This document shows positions 15,960-62,650 of a stretch of 64,000 bases of DNA, one piece after another. Within the stretch, counting starts at the first letter, position 1, and each line of letters begins with the position of its first letter. Source of the DNA: the human T2T-CHM13v2.0 reference genome, Homo sapiens; NCBI RefSeq assembly GCF_009914755.1, contig NC_060928.1. One strand, written 5' to 3'. The notes beneath the pieces were generated by a model. The model ran no database searches, was not told the origin of the DNA, and was given only the letters and a program-made list of their open reading frames with translations. Both the position numbers and the translations under genes were made by a program.

Positions 15960-18705
15960 CCCTTACCCTACTTGATATTTTGCCTCATATATTATGCATT
16001 TATTTGTTATATCTCTCCACCTGTCTTAGTTAATTTGTGCTACTACAACAAAATACCAGAGACAATTGTAAAGAACAGAAATTTGTTTTCCCATAGTTCC
16101 GGAGCTTTGGAAGTCCAAGATCAAGGAACTGTCAGGTTTGATTGTCTGGAGAGGGCTGCTGTCTGCTTCCAAGATGGCACCTTGTTGCTGCATCCTCTGG
16201 AGAGGAGGAGTGCTGTGTCCTTACAAGGTGGAAGGCATAAGGGCAAGAGGGCCAAACACCTAGTGAAGGCTCTTTCATAAGGGTTTTAATTCCACTAATG
16301 AAGAAGGATCCCTCATGACCTAATCACCTCTTAAGAGCCCCACCTCTTTATACCATCTCGTTGGTCATTAAGTTTTAACACCTGAATTTTTGAAGCAATA
16401 CATCCAAATTTATGTCCCTCTTAGATGAAAAATATATTCAGTCCATTCCCATAGCCCCTAAAGTATTAACTATTTCTAGTATCAACTTAAAAGTCTAAAG
16501 TCCAAAGTCTCATTTAAATATTTCTCAATCAGATATGGGTTAGATGCAAAGGTGTATATCATCTGTAGGCAAGTGTCCCTTTAGCTGTGAATCTGTGGAA
16601 TTAAAAAAGTTATGTGCTTCCAAAATATGGTGGTGGGATGGGCACAAGTTAGATGTTTCTGTTCCAAAAGGAGAAACAGGAAAGAAGAATGAGGTAACTG
16701 GTGTTAAGTAAGTCTAAAATCCAACAGGGCAAACAACACTCCATCTTAAGCCTTGAGAATAATCTTTGACTCCATGTCTCACATTCCAGGAACAATGGGG
16801 CAAGGGTTAGGTCCCCAAGGCTCCAGGGGACTACAACCCCATGGCTTTACTGAGTGTACCCCAAGCAGCTGCCCTCACAGATTGAAATTGGGTGCCTACA
16901 GCTCTCCCAGACTGGCATTCCGCATTGGTGACAGATCTAGGCTCTCTGAGGTGGCTCTGCTCCCATGGCTCCATTAAGAATTGCTCTACTGGGGGCTCTC
17001 TGCAGTGACCCCAACCCCTCGGCTCTGCTGGGCTTTTCCCAGGTTGGGGCCTTATTCAACACATGAGCAACATCCTCTCCCTGGGCCCCGATCCTCTCTG
17101 AGGGGCGTCCTTTGAAATCTTGGTGGAGGTGAAATCATGCCACCACAGGTCAAGGACTCTGTGAGCCTGTTGAATTAGCATCGTGTGGATGGATTCTCCA
17201 GTTTATAGCATTGTGGCTTACAGATCATGCCTTGCAGAGCAGTGGCCCGAGTTCTACCTGGCCCACTTTAGCCACCGCTGAAGTGGCCAGTGAGCGCTGT
17301 ACCAGAATATGGAAAGAAAGGACTTACAGTAACCTTGGGTGGAAAGCCCTGAGGCCCCACAGCCACCCTGGGCTCCTCTCTTCCAGCTGTTCTGTTCTCA
17401 AGGCCTAGCACTCTGGGTGTTTGATGGGTACTGCAGCTTCTAAAATGCCTTCAGTGTCGTGCTCCCATTATCTTAATGAATAATACCTGGCTTCCTTCTA
17501 TTCATAATAATCTTATCAAATGGTCTCTTGGGTATACCATTGGTTTTCTCTCCTAAACAAGCTTTTAAAATTCTGTACATGGCCAGGCTGAGCATTTTTT
17601 CAAATCTTTATATTTTACTTTTGTTTTAACTATAAATTCCTTCTTCAGTTTTTTTCTCTCTTCTCACATTTTACTATAAACAGGAGAATCCATGTAGCAC
17701 CCTGAATACTTTGCTTATAGAGATTTCTTCCACCAAATTTCCTAGTTCATTGCTTTTAAGTTCTGCCTCCTACAAAGTCCTAGGACATAGACACTGTTCA
17801 GACAAATTATTTTTCACTTTATAATGAGGACAGCCTTTTCTACAGTTTCCAATACCTTGTTTCTTATTTCCATCTGAGACTTCATTAGAATAGTCTTCGC
17901 TAACCATGTTTCTACCAGCATTCTGTTCACAACCACTTTAAGTAATCTTTGGGAAGAATGAACCTTTCCCTGTAGCTCTGCTCTTCTTCTGAGCCCTCAT
18001 CAGAATCACCCTTAACACTCCATTCATGGCAATAAAGGCTTTTTTCAACATTTACTTCAAAAGTTTTCCAGCCTGTAGCCATTACCCAATTCCAAATCTA
18101 CTTCCTCATATTTTGGTATCTGTTATAGCAACACCCACTTCTTTGGTACTGATTTCTCTCTTAGTCCATTTTTATGACTATAACAAAATATCACAGACTG
18201 AGTAATTTTTAAAGAACATAAATTTATTTCCTCACACTTCTGAAGGCTGAGAACTCCAAGATCAAGATGTGGGCAGGTTAGTTGTCTGGTGAGGGCTGTT
18301 CTCTGGTTCCAAGATGGCACCTTGTTGCTGCATCCTCTGGAAAGGAGTGCTGTGTCCTAAGATGGCAGAAGGCATATGGGCAAGAGGGCCAAACACTGAG
18401 TAAAGCTATTTTTATAAAAGGCTTAGTCCCATTTATGAGAAAAGAGCCCTCATGCTCTAATCACTTCTTAAAGGCCCTACAATAGTACTTAATAAGATCA
18501 TGTTGCCCATTAAGTTTCAACACCTGAATTTTGGAGGAGACATGCTCAAGCCATAGCACCACTTCTATGAGAGCAGGGCCCTCTCTGTTTAGTTTACTGC
18601 TGTATCTATCCTTGTGCCTAGAACAGACAGTGGCATGTCATAGGCATTCAGTAAATACGGTTGAATGAACCAATTTTTGAATTAATGAATGAATAAATGA
18701 ACAAA
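15960..18705 (+). mobile_element. L2 3' end split by the MST provirus (about 15960-16021 and 18564-18705)
   Basis: tttatttgttatatctctccac | ttctatgagagcaggg...gtgcctagaacag...ggcattcagtaaata...tgaatgaat. Confidence 0.75.
16022..18558 (-). mobile_element. Near-complete MST (MSTC-like) MaLR provirus: LTR about 16022-16408, internal region, LTR about 18156-18558
   Basis: Two similar ~400 bp direct repeats (ttccaagatggcaccttgttgctgcatcctctgga occurs in both); MST-int motifs between them; 5-bp TSD ccacc/ccact. Confidence 0.92.
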
Positions 18706-37900: not shown

Positions 37901-38543
37901 GCATTTTTCTGGCATCATCCCCCCAAAAATAGCCATGCAAAAGTGTACCTTGAAAATTAAATGGGAGGTCAAGAAAGCCAAAGAGGGGAGAATTTAGTGA
38001 GAGCCAGAACCTGGGACCAGAAGAGAGACCAAATACCTCTTTTCACTACTTAATTTCCTCAAATTCCGAGAGAGAGAGAACTGGATTTATCACAGTCCAC
38101 TGGGTAGGATAATAGCGACTTAAAATAGACATTAACAAAAAGGCTTATCTCAGAAGTATAGATAAAAGTAAAGTACACATTTTTTTGTATGATTATTAGT
38201 TAGGTAATGAATGGGTGAATTTCTTGGGCTGCCTCACTAATTTGTGAACTATGTTGCGTATTTATTTAACTCTATATTTCTACCACATTCTTCTTTTCTT
38301 TCCTGAGTGTCTCTAACATATTGATGAAAATGTGTAGGTTTTGACCTTTAAGGGAAGATGAATTTTAAGGAGCAGATTTTAAAAAAATTATTCAAAGTAA
38401 GTAATATAGCTTACATTTTAAAGATAGTTTATAGAATATACATATATATATAGACATATGTAGAGAGACTATATGAAGGCATACATACTTCTATGTGTAT
38501 GTTTGCTTTTGTAGATTTGAAGAATTGTATTTCTTTTATTTTT

Positions 38544-38818
38544 TAATTTATAAAGAAAAGAGGTTTAACTGACTCACAGCTCCACATAGCTAGGGAGGCT
38601 TCAGGAAACTTACCAATAGTGGCAGAAGGCAAAGGGGAAGCAACACGTCTTACATGGCAGCAGGAGAGAGAGAGAGTAAAGGAGGGAGTGCCACTTTTAA
38701 AACCATCAGATTTCCCAAGAATACACTCATTATCACAAGAACAGCTTGGGGGAAACTACCCCCATGATCCAATCACCTTCCACCAGGCCCCTCCCTTGAC
38801 ATGTGGGGAAAACAATTC
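38544..38818 (-). mobile_element. MSTA/THE1D-like LTR fragment lacking both termini (transduced by the adjacent L1)
   Basis: taatttataaagaaaagaggtttaactgactcacag...cccatgatccaatcaccttccaccagg...acaattc. Confidence 0.9.
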
Positions 38819-41800
38819 TTTTTTTTTTCAATAGGTTTTGGGGGAACACGTGGTATTTGGTTACATGAATAAGTTCTTCAGTGGTAATTTCTGAGATTTT
38901 GGTGCACTCATCACTTGAGCAGCCTACATTGTACCCAGCGTGTAGTCTTTTATCCCTCAACCCTCTCCCACCCTTTCCACTGAGTCCTCAAAATCCATTG
39001 TATCATTCTTATGCCTTTATGTCCTCATAGCTTAGCTCCCACTTATGAGTGAGAACATAACGATGTTTGGTTTTCCATTTCTGAGTTACTTCACTTAAAA
39101 TAATGGTTTTCAATCTTATCCAGGTTGCTGCAAATATCATTATGTTGTTCCTTTTTATGGTGAGTAGTATTCTATGGTATATATGTACCACATTTTCTTT
39201 ATCCAATTGTTGATTGATGGGCATTTGGCTGGTTCCATATTTTTGCAATTGCGAGTTGTACTGCTATAAACGTCTGTGTGTATCTTTTCCATATAATGGC
39301 TTATTTTCCTCTGGGAAGATACCCAGTAGTGGGATTGCTGGATCAAATGGTATATCTACTTTTAGTTCTTAAAGGAATCTTCACACTCTTTTCCATAGTG
39401 GTTGTACTAGGTTACATTCCCACCAACAGTGTTAAAGTGTTCCCTTTTCATCACATTCTTGCCAACATCTATTATTTTTTGATATTTTGATTATGGCCAT
39501 TTTGGCAGGAGTAAGATGGTATCATATTGTGGTTTTGATTTGCATTTCTCTGATAATTAGTGATGTTGAGCATTTTTTCATTTGTTTGTTGGCCATTTGT
39601 ATATCTTCTTTTGAGAGTTGTCTATTCATATCCTTAGCCCACTTTATGATGGGATTTTTTTCTTACTGATTTGTTTGAGTTCCTTGTAGATTCTGGATAT
39701 TAGTCCCTTGTCAGATGCATAGATTACAAATATTTTCTCCCACTCTTTGTGTTACCTGTCTACTCTGCTGATTATTTCTTTGGCTGTGCAGAAGTTTTTT
39801 TACTTTAATTAAGTCCTATCTATTTATCTTTGTTTTTGTTGCATTTGCTTTTGGGTTCTTGGCCATGAAGTCTTTGAATAAGCCAAGGTCTAGAAGGGTT
39901 TTTTTCTAATGTTATCTTCTAGAATTTTTATGGTTTCAGGTCTCAGATTTAAGTCTTTGATCTATCTTGATTTGATTTTTGTATAAGGTGAGAGATGAGG
40001 ATCCAGTTTCATTCTTCTACATGTGGCTTGCCAATTATCCCAGCACCATTTGTTGAATAGGGTGTCCTTTCTCCACTCTTATGTTTTTGTTTGCTTTGTC
40101 GAAGACCAGTTGGCTTTAAGTATGTGGCTTTATTTCAGAGTCCACTATTCTGTTCCATTGGTCTATTGCCTGTCTTTATACAAGTACCATGCTGTTGTGG
40201 TGACTATGGCCTTATAGCATAGTTTGAAGTCAGGTAATGTGATGCCTCCAGATTTATTCTTTTTGCTTCATCTTGCTTTGGCTATGCAGGGTCTTTTTTG
40301 GTTCCATATGAGTTTTAGGATGGTGTTTTCTAGTTCTGTGAAGATTGATGATGGTATTTTGATGTGAATTGCATTGAATTTATAGATTGCTTTTGGTAGT
40401 ATTGTCATTTTTACAGTACTGATTCTACCCATCCATGAGCGTGAGATGTGTTTTTATTAGTTTGTGTCATCTATTATTTCTTTCAGCAGTGTTTTATAGT
40501 TTTCCTTGTAGAGATCTCTCACCCCTCTGGTTATGTATATTCCTAAGTATTTTATTTCCTTTCTCTGCAGCAATTGTAAAAGTGATTGAATTCTTGATTT
40601 GATTCTCAGCTTGGTCACTGTTGGTGTTTAGCAGTGCTACTGATTTGAGTACATTGATTTTGTATTCTGAAACTTTACTGAATTCATTTATGAGATTTAG
40701 AAGCTTTATGGATGAATCTTTACGGTTTTTTAGGTACACGATCATATCATCAGTGAACAGCAGCAGTTTTACTTTCTCTTTACCAATTTGGATGCCTTTT
40801 ATTTCTTTCTGATTGCTCTGGCTAGGACTTCCAGTACTATGTGAAATAGAAGTGGTGAAAGTGGGCATCCTTGTCTTGTTTCAGTTCTCAGAGGAAATGC
40901 TTTCAACTTTTCCCCATTCAGCATAATGTTGGCTGTGGGTTTGTCATAGATAGCTTTTATTACCTTAATTATCTGCCAGTTTTGCTGGGGGTTTTAATCA
41001 TAAACGTTAATCTATTTTAATCATAACGGGATGCTGGATTTTGTCAAATGTTCTTCTGCATCTATTGAGATGATCATATAATTTTTGTTTTTACTTCTCT
41101 TGATGTGGTGTATTACATTTATGGACTTGTGTATGTTCAACCAGCTCTGCATCCCTGGTCTGAAACCCACTTGATCAAGGTGTATTATCTTTTTGATATG
41201 CTGTTGAATTTAGTTAGCTAGTATTTCGTTGAGGATTTTTGCATGTGTGTTCATCAGGGACATTAGTGTGTAGTTTTCTTTTTGTATTATTCTTTCCTGG
41301 TTTTGGTATTAGGGTGAACTGCTTCATAGAACGATTTAGGGAGGATTCCCTCTTTCTCTATCTCTTGGAATAGTGTCAATAGGATTGGTACTAATTCTTC
41401 TTTTAATGTCTGATAGAATTCAGCTGTGAATCCATCTGGTCCTGCACTTTTTATTTGTTGGCAATTTTTAAATCACCAATTTACCACTGCTCACTGCTTG
41501 TTATTAGTCTGTTCAGTGTTTCTACTTCTTCTGGTTTAATCTAGGAGGGTTGTACATATCCAAGAATTTATCCATCTCCTCTAGGTTTTCTAGTGTATGT
41601 GTGAAAAGGCATTCATCGTAGCCTTGAGTAAACTTTTGTATTTCTGTAGTGTCGGTTGTAATATATCCTGTTTTGTTTTTAATTGAGTTTATTTGGACTT
41701 TCTGTCTTCTTTTCTTGGTTAGTCTCACTAATGTTCTATCAATTTTATTTACCTTTTCAAAGAATCAGCTGTTTGTTTCATTTATGTTTTGTATTTTTTG

Positions 41801-44800
41801 TTGTTGTTTCTATTTCATTTAGTTTTGCTCTGATCATGTTTGTTTCTTTTCTTCTGCTGGGTTTGGTTTTGGTTCGTTTTTGTTTCTCTAGCTCCTTGAG
41901 GTGTGACCTTAGATTGTCTATTTGTGCTCTTTCTGACTTTTTGATGGAGGCATTTAATGGTATGAACTTTCCTTTTAACACTGTTTTTGCTATATCCCAG
42001 ATATTCTGATAGTTTATATCACTATTATCATTCAATTCAAATAATTTTTAAATTTCCCTCTTGATTTTATTGCTGACTCAGTGACCATTCAGGAGCAGGT
42101 CATTTAATTTTCATGTATTTGCGTGGTTTTGTGGGTTCCTTTTGGAGTGGATTTCCAATTGTATTCCACTATGGTCTGCGAGAGTACTTGATATAATCTC
42201 AATTTTCTTAAAATTGTTGATACTTATTTTGTGGCCTATCATATGGTCTATCATGGAGAAGGTTCCATTTGCTGATGAATAGAATGTATATTCTGTGGTT
42301 CTTGGGTAGAAGGTTCTGTAAATATCTATTAAGTCCATTTGTTCTTGGGTACCATTTAAGTCCATTGTTTCTTTGTTGACTTTCTGTCTTGATGACCTGT
42401 CTAGTCCTGTCAGTGGCATATTGAAGTCTCCCACTATTACTGTGTTGCTGTCTATCTCATTTCTTAGGTTTAATAGTAATTGTTTTATAAATTTGGGAGC
42501 TCCAGTGTTAGATGCATATGTATTTTGGATTGTGATATTTTCCTGTTAGACTAGTCCTCTTATCATTGTATATTGTCCTTCTTTGTCTTTTTAAACTGCC
42601 GTTGCTTTAAAGTTTGTTTTGTCTGGTATAGGAATAGTTACTCCTGCTCATTTTGGTGTTCATTTACATGGAATATCTTTTTATACCCCTTTACCTTAAG
42701 TTTATATGGGTCCTTATGTGCCAGGTGAGTCTCTTGAAGATAGCAGATACTTGGTTGGTGAATTCTTATTCATTTTGCCATTTTTTGTCTTTCAAGTGGA
42801 ATATTTAGGCCATTTACATTCAACATTAGTATTGAAATGTGAGACTCTAGTCAATTCATTGTGCCATTTGTTGCTTGAATACCTTCTTTTCATCATATTG
42901 TTTTACAGTTCCTGTGAGTTTTATGCTTCAAGGAGGTTCTATTTTGGTATATTTTGAGGATTGTTTCAAGATGGAGAGCTCCTTTTAACATTTTTTATAG
43001 TTCTTGTTTGGTAGTGGTAAATTCTCTCAGCATTGTTTATCTGAAAAAGAATGTATCATTTCCTCATTTATGAAGCTCAGTTTAATGGATACAAAATTCT
43101 TGGCTGAAAATTGTTTTGTTTAAGGGGGCTAAAAATAGGACCCCAACCCTTTTAGCTTGCAGGGTTTCTGCTGAGAAGTCTGCTGTTAATCAGATAGGTT
43201 TTCCTTTATAGTTTACCTTATGCTTTTGCCTCACAGCTCTTAAGATTCTTTATTTCATTCTGACTTTAGATAACCTGATGACTAGGTGGTGAAGCAATGA
43301 CCTTTTTGCAATGAATTTGGCAGGTGTTCTTTGAGCTTCTTGTATTTGGATGTCTAGATCTCTAGCAAGGCCAGGTAAGTTTTTCTTGATTATTTCCTCA
43401 AATATGTTTTCCAAATGTTTAGATTTCTCTTCTTCCTCAGGAACACCAATTATTCTTAGGTTTGGTCATTTAATGTAATCATAAACTTCTTGGAGGCTTT
43501 GTTTATTTTTTTAAATTCTTTTTTCTTTGTCTTTGATGGATTGGGTTAATTCAAAAGCCTGGTGTTTAAGCTCTGAATTTCTTTCTTCTATTTGTTTGAT
43601 TCTATTGCTGAGACTTTCAGTGCATTTTGCCATTTCTCTAAGTCTGTACTTGATTTCCAGATGTTGTGATTGTTTTTTATTCATGCTATTTTACTGGAGA
43701 TTTTTCCATTCACATCCTGTATCATTTTTTTTATTTCTTTAAGTTGGACTTCACCTTTCTTTGGTGCCTCTTGGATTGGCTTAATAGTTGACCTTCTGAA
43801 TTCTTTTTTTTTTTTTTTGTTAATTCAGAGAGTTCATCTTGGTTTGGATCCATTGCTGGTAAGCTAGTATATTTTGGGGGTGATAACCTTGTTTTGTCAT
43901 ATTATGAGAATTGTTTTTCTGGTTCCTTCTCATTTGGGCAGACTATGTTAGAGGGCAGATCAGGGACTCAAGGGCTGCTGTTCAGATTCTTTTGTCCCAT
44001 TGGGTACTTCCTTGATTTGGTGCTCTCCCCCTTTCCCTAGGGATGGGGCTTTCTGAGAGCCAAACTGCAGTGATTGTTATTTCTTTTCTGGATCTAGCCA
44101 CTCAGCTGAGCTGCCAGGCTCCACCTGGTGCTTGAGAGTGTTTCCAAAGAGTCTTGTGATGTGATTTGTCTTCAGGTCTCTCAGCTGTGTATACTAACAC
44201 CTCCTCCGGTGGAGGCGGCAGGGGAGTGAAGTGGACTCCATGAGAGTTCTTGGTTGTATTTTTGCTAAGTACTGCTGATTTTGTGTTCGTTGGCCTCAAG
44301 CCAGGAGGTGGTGCTTTCAAGAGCACATCAGCTGCAGTAGTATAGGGAGGATACAAGCTTGGCCTAGGATCAGGCGGTGTGTGGGGCCATGGAGCTCCCA
44401 GGAGACTATGTCCTTTGTCTTCAGCTACCAGGGCAGGTAGAGAAAGACAATCAGTGGAGGGCAGGGTTAGGAGCTTAGACTCTCCTTGAGTGGGGCTTGC
44501 TGCAGCTGCTGTGGGGGATGAGGGTGTGGTTCCCAGAGGGATTATGGCTGCCTCTGCTGCCTCACACAGGTTGCCAGGGAAGTAGGGGAAAGCCGGCAAC
44601 CTCAGGCCTCACCCAGCTCCTATGCAGCCTGCAGCCTGAAAGGCTGATCTCACTCCCACTGTGCCCCTGACAACAGGACTGAGTTTATTTCCAGGGCTGA
44701 GAACTTACCCCAGGTTACAAGCCTCCTAGCTGAGAAAGAAAAGGGACTCAGCTCCTCTGCTGCCCCACAGAGCCTGCAGCAACAATCCATCCACTTCAAA

Positions 44801-44943
44801 AAGTCTGTGGAAGTTCTCAGCTTTCCTGGTATGTTCCTGCCGTGGTTCTTGGAGAAAAGGTTCACAATTTGGGTCTCCACACACTGTCCTGCCCATCCAA
44901 GTGGGAGCTGCAAGTTAGTCCTGCCTCCTATCTGCTGTTTTCC
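38819..44943 (-). mobile_element. Full-length (~6.1 kb) L1PB (L1PB1-like), both ORFs disrupted
   Basis: Poly-T then caataggtttt...tggttacatgaataagttc; ORF2 relics (GDFNMPLT...[18 protein letters not shown]); ORF1; GC-richer 5'UTR ending gggagctgcaagttagtcctgcctcctatctgc. Confidence 0.93.
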
Positions 44944-45221
44944 AGAACTGTATTTCTTTACCCACTCATTTATTTGCTGTTTCCTATATTTTGTACAAAA
45001 ATGACTAAAAATTATAACTAATAAAGGTTATTTTCCTACATCTTCCCTCTTCCAAGGCTTTTTCATTGTTTTCGTTAATGAATTTTTTTTGAAAAAAGAA
45101 ATGAATATTATGTTAACTATAATATTAATTTTCAGAAGGATAGTAAGAAGACGATTCCCAAATCCCAATCCTCAGAAATAAACACTGTTAACACTTGATG
45201 GACATAATTACAGATATGTCT

Positions 45222-49346: not shown

Positions 49347-49742
49347 TGTATTTCGTCATTCTTGCATTGCTATAAAGGAATACTTGACACTGGGTAATTT
49401 ATAAAGAAAAAAGATTTAATTGGCTCAGGGTTCTGCAGGCTGTACAAGCATTGCACTGGCATCTGCTTGGCTTCCAGGGAGGCCTTGGGGAGTTTTTACT
49501 CATGGTGGAAGGCAAAGCTAGAGCAGGCATATCACATGGTGAGACCAGGAGCAAGAGAGAGGGGGAGGAGGTGCCACAAGCTTTTGAACAGCTCGATCTC
49601 ATGTGAACTCACTATTGTGAGGAAAGCACCAAGCCATGAAGAATCCACCCTGATGACCCCAACACCGCCCATCAGTCTCCACCTCCAACACCGGGAATTA
49701 CATTTCAACATGATATTTCAAAGGAACATCCAAAGCATATCA
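49347..49742 (-). mobile_element. MSTA/B solo LTR
   Basis: tgtatt...ttgctataaaggaatacttgacactgggtaatttataaag...catccaaagcatatca; perfect TSD aacca at 49342-49346 and 49743-49747. Confidence 0.93.
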
Positions 49743-53214: not shown

Positions 53215-53533
53215 TGCTACAGTTTGAATGTCTCCCACAGAATTTATATGTTGGAAACTTAATCCCCAATGTGACAGCATTGGCAGGAGGAGCCAAATGG
53301 GAGGTGTTTAGGTCTTGAGGGCAGGATATAAATGGCTGTCAAAAGAGGATTTGCTCTCTTGTGCACTTTGACCTCCTGCCTTGTGATGACACGGGAAGAA
53401 GGCCCTTACCAGTTGCCAATGCCTTGATCTTGGACTTTCCAGCCTCCAGAACTCTGAGGGAATAAATTTCTTTTTTTTTATATTTTACTCAGTTTCAGGC
53501 ATTTTGTTATAGCAGCACAAACGAATTAAGCCA
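53215..53533 (+). mobile_element. MSTC/D-like solo LTR
   Basis: tgctacagtttgaatgtc...ttggactttccagcctccagaact...aataaatttc; TSD aggtc/aggcc. Confidence 0.88.
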
Positions 53534-60023: not shown

Positions 60024-60396
60024 TGATATGGTTTGACTGTGTCCTCACCTAAATCTCATCTTGAGTTGTAGTTTCTATAGTCCCCACAAGTCATGGGAGG
60101 TGCCCAGTGGGAGATACTTGAATCATAGGGGTGGTTACCCCCATGCTGCTGCTCTCATGATAGAGAGTACTCATGAGATATGATGGTTTTATAAGGGGCT
60201 TTTCCCTTTTTGCTCAGCACTTCTCTTGCTGCTACCATGTGAAGAAAGACATGTTTGCTTCCCCTTTTGCGATGATTGTAAGTTTCCTGAGGCCTTCTCA
60301 GCCATTCTGAACTGTCAGTCAATTAAACCTCTTTCCTTTATAAATTACCCAGTCTCAAATATGTCTTTATTAGCAGTGTGAGAACAGACTAATACA
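60024..60396 (+). mobile_element. THE1 (C/D-like) solo LTR
   Basis: tgatatggtttgactgtgtcc...caattaaacctctttcctttataaattacccagtctc...gactaataca; perfect TSD ctgct at 60019-60023 and 60397-60401. Confidence 0.95.
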
Positions 60397-62650
60397 CTGC
60401 TCCTGTATGCAGTGATTCCCTTCTGTGTACTTGCCCACTTCCCAAAGTATGCTTTTTAACATCCCATTTCTAATTTCTGAGTGAACTTTGGCTGTGCTGT
60501 TTGATCCCTATATGAATGTTTCTGACATCATCCAAGACAAAGTTGGTTTCCCTAGCTTTGGAGTTATCTGATGCCCTTCTGTTAGGGCACAGTTTTGATG
60601 ACCACCACTCAGTAAGAAGCAATCAATTGTCTTTTAAATGGTTTATTAGGAATAGCTATTTTGCCTAACATTTGTTCTCAAAAAATAAGAGGTCTTCACT
60701 GAACTCTTTCATTTCTGCAGATAGCTCTAGTCTGTGTATGTTCTGGTTTCGGGTGCATCTAATATTATCTGTGCAGTCAAATCATACAATCCTAATAGAC
60801 CTTCCTGCATCACCACCCTCCAAAAATCCTTTAGCAATTTCTTCTGCTCAGAGCCTCTACTCAAATTCAGTTATCTTTCTGGTGACTTTGTGAACAGAGG
60901 TCAATAGCATTCTTAGATTGAAGAAAACAAAAACAAAAAACTGCAAAAGCCTAAGTAAGCTCTATTTATCTCTAGGTCTCTTACTCATTTGCAGATTCTG
61001 TAAGCGATAATTTTTTATGGTTTCAAAAAATGTCTCTAGTTGCTCCAGTCAATGTAATTCCAAGGGCTATGGATATTATCTGAGCTCATCAGCCTGGCTC
61101 TATTTGTCATGTGAGTCACCACAGTCCTTAACTCCTCTTTAATTCTTATGAGAGGAGAAGCTTTTATAATATAATCAATTTACTAACTTGCTTTGCATAT
61201 TTGTTAAGTCCAGGTCCCACTTCATGAAATTATCAATTGTGCAGGCAAATTCAAACATACTTCTGGCAATATAGTAAATGTATACTGAGTCCTATTCTGT
61301 GAGAATGCATATTGTACCTGGCTGTTCCTGGAAATTGAGATGGAGAAGAAAGCACTAGGCAAGTTTCTAATGACATAGCCATCCTCCTTGGCTTGTTGTG
61401 CATCCTATACAGTGTTTACCACATCAGGTACAGTTGAAGCAATTAGGACAACTACTTGTTGAATGCTTGATAATCTACAGTTAACCTTCAGGGACTGGCC
61501 AGACAGCTCTGTTAATGGGGAAGCTAATGGGAACCAATAATCATACCTCAAGTATTCCCTTAATCAGGGCAATAATCTCTTGTACGTTCCTGGAATTCTG
61601 TATTGTTTACAATTTATTCTAGGACAACATAGGAAATTCCAAAAGTCACCGTTCAGCATGGCCAGTTAAAACTCCAGGAAGGGTGATTAGGCAATATACT
61701 TCCCCAACAAAAACGGAAAAAGGGAACATTCTCTATTAGCACATAATATCTATCCCAATTATGCATTCAGCTAAAGGCCATTAACCAGTGAAAAGTCTCC
61801 CCAGTCATATTCTTCACTCCTAAACTTATTCTGATGCTAGTCCCCCCAACATGGCATCTCCAAATCCTGCTAGTTTCAGCTTTGGGTCTTTCATAGCACT
61901 GCCTTGATTTATCATAAGTGCTACTGAACATTGAAAACCTCTATCTAGTCATTTTAGAGGCTTTGCCTACCAGTTCCTGGCTTTTTTACCAGGATTTGCT
62001 GGATTTTTACCAAATATTTGCAAAAGGCCTATGATTGCTTGTTTGGGGTAGGATAAGAATATCTCAGTCTCTCAGCCAACCTTTTTCAGACTCAATGACT
62101 TTATCTATGGAAACACATTCAGGCTGCTGTTTAAGTACTTTCCATTTTGAATCTTGATTCTCATCAGTTGATTTGATTTTTCTAGACTATAATAATTTGA
62201 GTGAACTTGCAGTGACACTTTAAGAAGTGGGAGGGAGGATCAGAGCAGCTCCCCACCTTCCAAATGTGGATACTGTTGTTCTAACTTCTTAGTAGAAACA
62301 GTAAGATTCTTTCTCTCTCTTTTTACACTGCTTTTTATAAACCATCTAAAGAGCTCCACTAAGTTGAGGGGATTCTTATTTCCTTTTTCTCTTCATGGTC
62401 CTTTCTTTTGTGTGCATAGATCTTTTTATCATCATGCAGCCCCCTCTGCATTACCTGAGCTGGCAGGTTCATCATCATCTCCTAAATATTCCCTTGGTTT
62501 CCCATTACATAAGGAGAACAGGAGACAGAAGCTCTCCAAAGTAGCACGTGTTTCATTATCTGTGCCAGAAACATTAAATTGATTGCGTCTTTCTGATCAT
62601 CAAATAGACAGGTTGGTGTTGGTCATTCACACCATGCCTGAAGCATGAAA

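What the first reader, a model, noticed from the sequence alone, without database searches (positions are those of the whole stretch)
38521..44959. Full-length L1PB with an ancient 3' transduction that ends at a MaLR LTR's own poly(A) site
Seen: the 16-bp repeat agaa(t/c)tgtatttcttt sits at 44944-44959 (abutting the L1 5' end) and at 38521-38536. The second copy is not next to the L1 tail (38819-38828) but about 280 bp beyond it. Between them lie an MSTA/THE1D-like LTR fragment, co-oriented with the L1, and a second short T-rich tail (38537-38544). The fragment lacks the LTR start and stops at ...cctcttttctttataaatta, just past the position of the ATTAAA signal; the intact THE1 at about 60320-60350 continues cccagtctc at that point. 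Inference: a source L1 inserted inside an LTR elsewhere, read through its weak terminator, used the LTR poly(A) signal and retrotransposed here. Annotation tools would report two unrelated neighbours. The tag could identify the parent locus and siblings of an extinct L1 lineage.
Basis: partly seen in the sequence, partly recalled or inferred. Interest (0 to 1): 0.8.

Follow-up and report, generated by a model that had tools for sequence, protein, structure and literature searches.

The report
Old L1 carrying a transduced LTR piece
A dead, full-length L1 retrotransposon carries 275 bases of an unrelated LTR that it most likely copied from next to its parent element, which is a well-known kind of event and so a tidy but ordinary example.

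Summary
A 15/16 direct repeat (38521-38536 and 44944-44959) encloses a composite on the minus strand. It consists of a full-length, decayed L1 (38829-44943), its A10 tail (38819-38828), a sense-oriented 275-bp MaLR LTR fragment (38544-38818) and a 7-nt A-rich tail (38537-38543). The L1 starts at the first base of its family. The LTR fragment starts about 40 nt inside the LTR. It stops 20 nt after the poly(A)-signal position, where all 19 aligned genomic relatives continue. Seven of 12 independently found A-tailed MaLR truncations end at that site or 1 nt from it. No repeat flanks the L1 alone, and no remainder of the LTR lies nearby. The best reading is an L1 3' transduction terminated at the LTR's poly(A) site (about 0.8). 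The main rival is a second retrocopy inserted into the L1's poly(A) tail (about 0.1). No parent or sibling locus turned up in the human genome. The mechanism is textbook, so interest is low.

The parts
44944..44959 (.). Target-site duplication, copy at the L1 5' end (AGAACTGTATTTCTTT on the + strand)
   Evidence: It abuts the first base of the L1 as defined by family alignments.
38829..44943 (-). Full-length, decayed L1 body (6115 bp)
   Evidence: 5' end: 26 of 39 non-self hits begin at query 57-60, which is window 44944-44941. The flanks of 11 inspected copies are unrelated to one another. 3' end: 19 related copies end at the same ...CCTAT(T/G)G. The longest open stretch is 168 aa.
43253..43465 (-). 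ORF1 remnant (L1 RBD-like domain)
   Evidence: Pfam PF02994, E 1.7e-19
42114..42545 (-). ORF2 endonuclease remnant
   Evidence: Pfam PF03372, E 6.4e-6, above its cut-off; PF14529, E 4.8e-6, just below its cut-off
40497..40880 (-). ORF2 reverse-transcriptase remnant
   Evidence: Pfam PF00078, E 6.9e-5, 23.1 bits, below the 29.6-bit cut-off. A weak match, but in the expected order.
38819..38828 (-). The L1's own tail, a pure A10 run. There is no AATAAA or ATTAAA hexamer here.
   Evidence: Of 19 related copies, 15 have AATAAA or ATTAAA at this place, 1 has AATAAG, and 3 have a plain A run like this copy.
38544..38818 (-). MaLR (MST-type) LTR fragment, running from about LTR position 42 to the LTR poly(A) site. 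It holds part of U3 plus R. This is the transduced segment.
   Evidence: Short A-tailed LTR retrocopies start about 150 nt downstream of this fragment's start, so the fragment begins upstream of the LTR's inferred own start site.
38564..38569 (-). Position of the LTR poly(A) signal. It reads GTTAAA here, 20 nt before the end of the fragment.
   Evidence: Of the 19 LTR relatives, 14 have ATTAAA, 2 have GTTAAA and 3 have other hexamers.
38537..38543 (-). Second, short A-rich tail (AAAAATA)
38521..38536 (.). Target-site duplication, copy at the 3' end (AGAATTGTATTTCTTT on the + strand). Its T-rich end abuts the tail.
   Evidence: On the + strand the pre-insertion site reads ...TTTCTTT/AC, an L1-endonuclease-like nick site. 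The consensus TTTT/AA is recalled, not from a call.

Best explanation
This is an L1 3' transduction, and the proposed order of events is as follows. A full-length L1 of this family sat elsewhere in the genome, inside or just upstream of a sense-oriented MST-type MaLR LTR, at about LTR position 42. Its transcript ran past the L1's own 3' end. That transcript was cleaved and polyadenylated at the LTR's poly(A) site, 20 nt after the ATTAAA position. The chimeric RNA (L1, genomic A tail, 275 nt of LTR, new poly(A)) was then inserted here by target-primed reverse transcription at a ...TTTCTTT/AC nick, which created the 16-bp target-site duplication.

Shown: the anatomy, the single enclosing duplication, the complete L1 ends, and the end of the fragment at the main MaLR poly(A) site.

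Inferred: the existence and position of the parent element, and read-through as the way the two parts were joined.
For: 1. One 15/16 duplication encloses the L1 plus the LTR piece, and none flanks the L1 alone.
2. The L1 is complete at both ends. At the 5' end, 26 of 39 family hits start at window 44944-44941, and the flanks of the inspected copies are unrelated. The 3' end matches the ends of 19 related copies.
3. The LTR piece is in the same orientation and starts directly after the A10 tail.
4. It ends at ...ATAAATTA, where all 19 relatives continue.
5. Two strict genome-wide patterns found 17 distinct loci where a MaLR LTR 3' region is followed by A10 or more (7, 12, 2 shared; reversed-pattern controls gave 0). 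Of these, 15 were inspected. Twelve are truncations followed by unrelated DNA, and 7 of those 12 end at this site or 1 nt from it.
6. The fragment starts about 150 nt upstream of where short A-tailed LTR retrocopies with their own duplications begin (L085, L091, L093). The RNA therefore came from upstream of the LTR's inferred own start site.
7. This L1 copy lacks the AATAAA or ATTAAA hexamer that 15 of 19 relatives carry at their 3' end, which fits read-through.
8. No remainder of the LTR lies near either end. The only other MaLR pieces in the window are at 18161-18253, 49357-49718, 53447-53517 and 60024-60400.
9. The defining features given in the literature are a weak L1 signal, a downstream signal 10-40 nt before the cleavage site, and co-mobilised flanking DNA (PMC9311842, passages).
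Against: - No parent or sibling locus was found. None of 39 non-self hits spans the junction, and none of 39. In each case only 40 candidates were scored, out of 9931 and 2036. Three exact junction patterns found only this locus or nothing.
- The signal hexamer reads GTTAAA in this copy. The signal must therefore have been intact in the parent and changed later, or a non-canonical signal was used.
- The outer tail is only 7 nt long.
- The hexamer missing from the L1 could have been lost after insertion.
- A second retrocopy inserted into the L1's poly(A) tail would look identical.
- No orthologous empty or intermediate site could be examined.
Confidence: 0.8

Rival explanations
1. Two successive insertions. 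The L1 inserted first and made the 16-bp duplication. Soon afterwards a 5'-truncated retrocopy of some LTR-terminated, polyadenylated RNA (for example a MaLR element transcript) inserted into the L1's still long poly(A) tail, in the same orientation. Its own target duplication would consist only of A's and so would be invisible.
For: The result would be L1, A(n), LTR piece, A(n), original duplication, exactly as seen. A-tailed MaLR LTR retrocopies not visibly attached to any L1 do exist in this genome (11 of the 12 truncations). That poly(A) tails are favoured L1-endonuclease targets is established knowledge, recalled and not from a call.
Against: - It needs two rare events at one spot within the lifetime of a long, pure tail.
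- My rough, unmeasured estimate of base rates favours transduction by more than 10 to 1.
- The L1 copy lacks its own poly(A) hexamer, as do only 3 of 19 relatives. Read-through predicts this; the rival does not.
- None of the sequence evidence discriminates sharply between the two.
Confidence: 0.1
2. Template-switch chimera. Reverse transcription began on a polyadenylated LTR-containing RNA and then jumped onto the poly(A) tail of a full-length L1 RNA within a single insertion event.
For: A single duplication around two sequences of different origin fits this too. L1 reverse transcriptase is known to switch templates (PMC4476161, passages).
Against: In the chimeras described, reverse transcription starts on the L1 RNA and switches to another RNA. 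The non-L1 part therefore lies 5' of the L1 part, and the events appear largely restricted to U6 and U6atac (PMC4476161). Here the order is reversed and the L1 is full length with its tail. The LTR piece starts in U3, not at an RNA 5' end.
Confidence: 0.04
3. Unrelated neighbours. An L1 inserted beside or into a resident LTR fragment, and the 16-bp repeat is a chance match.
For: Both element types are very common. No parent locus was found.
Against: - The repeat occurs only at these two places, against 0.16 expected at up to 2 mismatches in the whole window. Both copies sit exactly at independently defined element boundaries.
- No duplication flanks the L1 alone.
- Neither missing part of the LTR is nearby.
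- The fragment ends at the poly(A) site with an A-rich tail.
Confidence: 0.02

Closest known systems
L1 3' transduction (read-through of the weak L1 poly(A) signal to a downstream signal, co-mobilising flanking DNA)
   Same: An L1 with its own tail, then a foreign co-linear segment, then a second tail placed 20 nt after a poly(A)-signal position, all enclosed by one target-site duplication with an endonuclease-like nick site (definition in PMC9311842).
   Different: The event is old. The copies are about 80-85% identical to their relatives, and the parent cannot be traced. The transduced DNA is itself a repeat: an LTR whose own terminator was used. Repeat annotation alone would therefore not reveal the link.
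L1-mediated processed retrocopies of endogenous-retrovirus RNAs (for example HERV-W processed pseudogenes)
   Same: The LTR sequence stops at the R/U5 boundary, is followed by an A tail, and lies within target-site duplications.
   Different: Here the LTR piece starts inside U3 and is fused behind a complete L1. It is a passenger of an L1 transcript, not a retrocopy of the retroviral RNA. On HERV-W I saw only abstracts (PMC5537654 and PMC5016936, listing).
U6/L1-type template-switch chimeras
   Same: Two RNAs of different origin lie inside one target-site duplication.
   Different: The order of the parts is reversed, the L1 is full length, and an A10 run lies between the parts (passages).

Membership tests
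L1 3' transduction | The L1 3' end, with its own tail, lies upstream of the extra segment | tested here: met
   The L1 body ends at 38829 exactly where 19 related copies end, followed by A10.
L1 3' transduction | A non-L1 segment, co-oriented, follows the L1 tail directly | tested here: met
   38544-38818 is a MaLR LTR on the minus strand, 82-85% identical to 19 copies.
L1 3' transduction | The segment ends in a second poly(A) tail at a genuine cleavage site | tested here: met
   It ends at ...ATAAATTA followed by AAAAATA. Seven of 12 independent A-tailed MaLR truncations end at this site or 1 nt from it. The tail is only 7 nt long.
L1 3' transduction | A poly(A) signal lies 10-40 nt upstream of the cleavage site | tested here: inconclusive
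   The position is right, 20 nt upstream, but this copy reads GTTAAA. Of the 19 relatives, 14 have ATTAAA there.
L1 3' transduction | Target-site duplications flank the whole composite and not the L1 alone | tested here: met
   A 15/16 repeat sits at 38521-38536 and 44944-44959, with no other match in the flanks.
L1 3' transduction | A parent locus or siblings share the junction (confirmatory rather than defining) | tested here: inconclusive
   None was found. The searches score only 40 candidates or need exact motifs, and the parent may have been lost.
L1 3' transduction | An empty orthologous site in an outgroup carries one duplication copy | not testable with these tools
   No other primate genome was available.
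   The body is 6115 bp and the reading frames are broken.
   No Dfam or Repbase library was available, so the name is unverified.
MaLR LTR (MST/THE1 group) | Collinear homology to LTRs that have defined termini and MaLR internal sequence next to them | tested here: met
   See the alignment. The internal-type sequence upstream of the LTR start is shared by L010, L015 and L019. The type names MST, THE1 and MLT1 and the call of MaLR-internal sequence rest on recalled motifs.
Template-switch chimera | The L1 (or another first template) forms the 3' part and the second RNA forms the 5' part | tested here: not met
   Here the L1 is the 5' part and is full length. The definition is from PMC4476161.

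The most novel reading that the evidence does not exclude
This locus may be one visible member of an uncatalogued class: MaLR LTR sequence moved by the L1 machinery rather than by LTR integration. Members would be either passengers of L1 read-through transcripts or A-tailed retrocopies that end at the R/U5 boundary. If so, a measurable share of 'truncated solo LTRs' are not LTR insertions. The 275-bp tag here could also be the only surviving trace of a lost parent locus from the time this L1 family was active.
Probability: 0.4. Interest if true: 0.3.

Novelty: new member of a known kind. Interest (0 to 1): 0.17.

Why it matters
It is a clean, internally documented example of an old L1 3' transduction in which the terminator was another retroelement's poly(A) site. 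Repeat annotation would list the two parts as unrelated neighbours. For genome annotation, it shows that an LTR fragment ending at the R/U5 boundary with an A tail should be read as L1-mediated. It changes nothing about the mechanism, and the tag did not lead to a parent element or to siblings in the human genome.

Tried and rejected
1. Parent or sibling search.
- BLAST-type searches of the whole genome with 38537-38900 and 38765-38885. All 39 non-self hits match only the LTR part, and all 39 match only the tail plus the L1 3' end.
- Exact 3' junction patterns found only this locus.
- A 5' junction pattern, LTR start followed by L1 start, found nothing.
- The best LTR hits (L002-L004, 84-85%) are uninterrupted LTRs and so are not the parent.

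2. L028. This is an L1 of the same family with an A10 tail followed by GAAT..., and it first looked like a sibling. It is in fact an L1 inside an MLT1-type LTR that continues past the poly(A) site.

3. L049. Its alignment ran 16 nt into the duplication. Inspection shows this is only chance similarity in an A-rich flank.

4. L053 (C1:33539863). It looks like a second L1 transduction to a MaLR poly(A) site. Its target duplication could not be confirmed.

5. Poly(A) site position. The broader pattern search showed that not every A-tailed truncation is at +20. Five of 12 lie at +12 to +16. Three further pattern hits are in-situ A runs within intact LTRs.

No repeat library was available, so the names L1PB and MSTA/THE1D were not tested.
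Full report
**Observation**

The 16-mer AGAATTGTATTTCTTT lies at 38521-38536 and AGAACTGTATTTCTTT at 44944-44959, a 15/16 match. Between 38400-38900 and 44850-45050 it is the only match of at least 10 exact bases, or of 14 to 16 bases with one mismatch. In the whole 64-kb window, on both strands and at up to 2 mismatches, the 16-mer occurs only at these two places. Dinucleotide-preserving shuffles give 0.16 expected. Both copies sit at element boundaries that were defined independently (see below), so chance is a poor explanation. That last step is inference.

**The L1**

On the minus strand the element runs from 44943 down to 38829, a length of 6115 bp.

- 5' end. A genome-wide search with the 5' end plus flank scored 40 of 1159 candidates. 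Of the 39 non-self hits, 26 start at query 57-60 (window 44944-44941), 12 start at 66-71, and 1 starts at 42. Eleven of these loci were inspected. The copies share the same first bases as the window element, or start a few bases inside it. Their upstream flanks are unrelated to one another. The one hit that reached into the duplication (L049) reflects only a loose similarity in an A-rich flank. The L1 is therefore full length, and the duplication abuts its first base.
- 3' end. Nineteen related copies end at the same ...CCTAT(T/G)G as the window copy.
- Coding remnants. Pfam finds them in the expected order on the minus strand: ORF1 RBD-like domain at 43253-43465 (E 1.7e-19), endonuclease at 42114-42545 (E about 5e-6), and a weak reverse-transcriptase match at 40497-40880 (E 6.9e-5, below the curated cut-off).
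- State. The longest open stretch on that strand is 168 aa, so the element is dead.
- Poly(A) hexamer. Of the 19 related copies, 13 have AATAAA and 2 have ATTAAA directly at the end, 1 has AATAAG, and 3 have a plain A run. The window copy has a plain A10 run.

**The LTR fragment**

- Identity. 38544-38818 on the minus strand is 82.0-85.4% identical to 19 genomic LTR copies and 73.6% identical to the THE1-like LTR at about 60024-60400 in the window.
- Start. In the alignment the full LTRs start about 40 nt upstream of where the fragment begins. The fragment starts directly after the L1's A10 run.
- End. The fragment ends at ...TTTATAAATTA. At that point all 19 relatives and the window LTR continue with about 50 more LTR bases. 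The fragment instead continues with AAAAATA and then the duplication.
- Signal. The poly(A)-signal position lies 20 nt before the fragment's end. It reads ATTAAA in 14 of the 19 relatives, GTTAAA in 2 and something else in 3. The fragment reads GTTAAA (38564-38569).
- Remainder of the LTR. Neither missing part is nearby. The only other MaLR matches in the window are at 18161-18253, 49357-49718, 53447-53517 and 60024-60400. The one at 49357-49718 covers nearly a whole LTR, including the part that the fragment holds, so it is a separate element.

**Is the end of the fragment the LTR's poly(A) site?**

- Two strict genome-wide patterns asked for a MaLR LTR 3' region followed, at a free distance, by A10. 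They found 7 distinct loci and 12 distinct loci. Two loci are shared, which gives 17 in all. The reversed-pattern controls gave 0.
- I inspected 15 of the 17. The other two came without loci.
- Three of the 15 are A runs inside LTRs that continue, so they are not truncations.
- Twelve of the 15 are LTRs cut and followed by an A run and then unrelated DNA. Seven of these 12 are cut at the fragment's site or 1 nt away (+20/+21 from the hexamer). Five are cut at +12 to +16.
- L085, L091 and L093 are short copies with visible target duplications of their own. They start shortly after the TATA-like motif.
- From these short copies I infer the LTR's transcript start and read the +20 site as its main poly(A) site. 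On that reading the window fragment begins about 150 nt upstream of the start, inside U3. Its RNA must therefore have been started upstream of the LTR, which fits an L1 transcript reading through.

**Mechanism**

The geometry is that of target-primed reverse transcription. On the + strand the pre-insertion site reads ...TTTCTTT/AC, and the T-rich end of the left duplication copy abuts the A-rich tail. The endonuclease consensus TTTT/AA is recalled, not taken from a call. The features that the literature uses to define 3' transduction are a weak L1 signal, a downstream signal 10-40 nt before the cleavage site, and co-mobilised flank (passages read in PMC9311842). All are present here, except that the hexamer in this old copy differs by one base from that of most relatives. 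I therefore take 3' transduction as the best explanation, at about 0.8.

**Rivals**

- Nested insertion (about 0.1). A second, 5'-truncated retrocopy of an LTR-terminated RNA inserted into the L1's poly(A) tail. It would leave the same picture, because its own target duplication would be made only of A's. Against it stand the need for two events at one spot, my rough and unmeasured estimate of base rates, and the absence of the L1's own hexamer in this copy. None of these is decisive.
- Template-switch chimera (about 0.04). Described chimeras have the L1 as the 3' part and are largely limited to U6 and U6atac (passages in PMC4476161). Here the order is reversed.
- Chance neighbours (about 0.02). 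This is contradicted by the duplication statistics and by the missing remainder of the LTR.

**Parent and siblings**

None was found.

- In one search, 40 of 9931 candidates were scored. All 39 non-self hits cover only the LTR part.
- In one search, 40 of 2036 candidates were scored. All 39 non-self hits cover only the tail plus the L1 3' end.
- Exact junction patterns found only this locus or nothing.

These searches are not exhaustive. At this age a parent LTR would be hardly closer to the fragment than any other family member, which is inference from the 82-85% identities. The result is therefore 'not found', not 'absent'.

**Age**

- The L1 is 78-85% identical to related copies over its 5' 240 bp and 82-94% identical over its 3' 132 bp.
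- The LTR piece is 82-85% identical to its relatives.
- One of the 16 duplication bases differs.
- A table in PMC1794541 (passages) dates MST to about 75 Mya and THE1 to about 55 Mya. An MST-type LTR would thus have existed before an L1 of this divergence was active.

No date was computed here.

**Novelty**

The phenomenon is well established, and only this instance is new. The one unusual aspect is that the transduced DNA is itself a repeat whose own terminator was used, which hides the link from repeat annotation. I searched the papers library for 3' transduction with downstream polyadenylation, for transduced sequences in older L1s and for MaLR/THE1 polyadenylation signals. None of the listed titles or abstracts describes this locus or an LTR-terminated L1 transduction as such. 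I read only the passages named above, so a published description may exist elsewhere.

Noticed in passing
Loci L054, L055, L057, L064, L083, L085, L091, L092, L093, L056, L062 (own genome; for example C10:15572760, C12:34087585, C13:50195490): These are A-tailed MaLR LTR copies cut in the +12 to +21 zone after the poly(A) hexamer. Three (L085, L091, L093) are short copies that start near the LTR's TATA-like motif and have visible target duplications. L054 and L064 have what looks like MaLR internal sequence (judged by eye) plus a complete LTR 5' end upstream of the cut. All look like L1-mediated retrocopies of MaLR RNAs. One review abstract calls HERV-W the sole HERV group mobilised by L1 (PMC5537654, listing).
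   Followed up: partly
L053 (own genome C1:33539863, locus positions about 1080-1560): An L1PA-type 3' end with its A-rich tail is followed by about 190 bp of an MLT1-type LTR that ends at the same ...ATAAATTA site, followed by A14. It looks like an independent, younger L1 transduction to a MaLR poly(A) site. Its target duplication was not confirmed.
   Followed up: partly
L028 (own genome C7:148094120): An L1 of the same family, also with a plain A10 tail, sits in sense orientation inside an MLT1-type LTR that continues past its poly(A) site. This is the kind of arrangement a transduction parent would have, but in a different LTR family.
   Followed up: yes
window 44457-44956: The RefSeq 'enhancer' feature given in the hub's annotation lies almost entirely inside the 5' UTR of this old L1 (L1 5' end at 44943). 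I did not examine it.
   Followed up: no
window 49357-49718 (minus strand): A separate, older and more diverged MaLR LTR (66-84% identical to MST-type copies) lies 4.4 kb beyond the L1 5' end. It covers nearly a whole LTR and is not the missing remainder of the fragment.
   Followed up: yes
L024 and L025 (own genome C22:4330207 and C21:2591225): Two L1 3' ends with near-identical flanks lie on two acrocentric short arms. This is presumably a segmental duplication.
   Followed up: no
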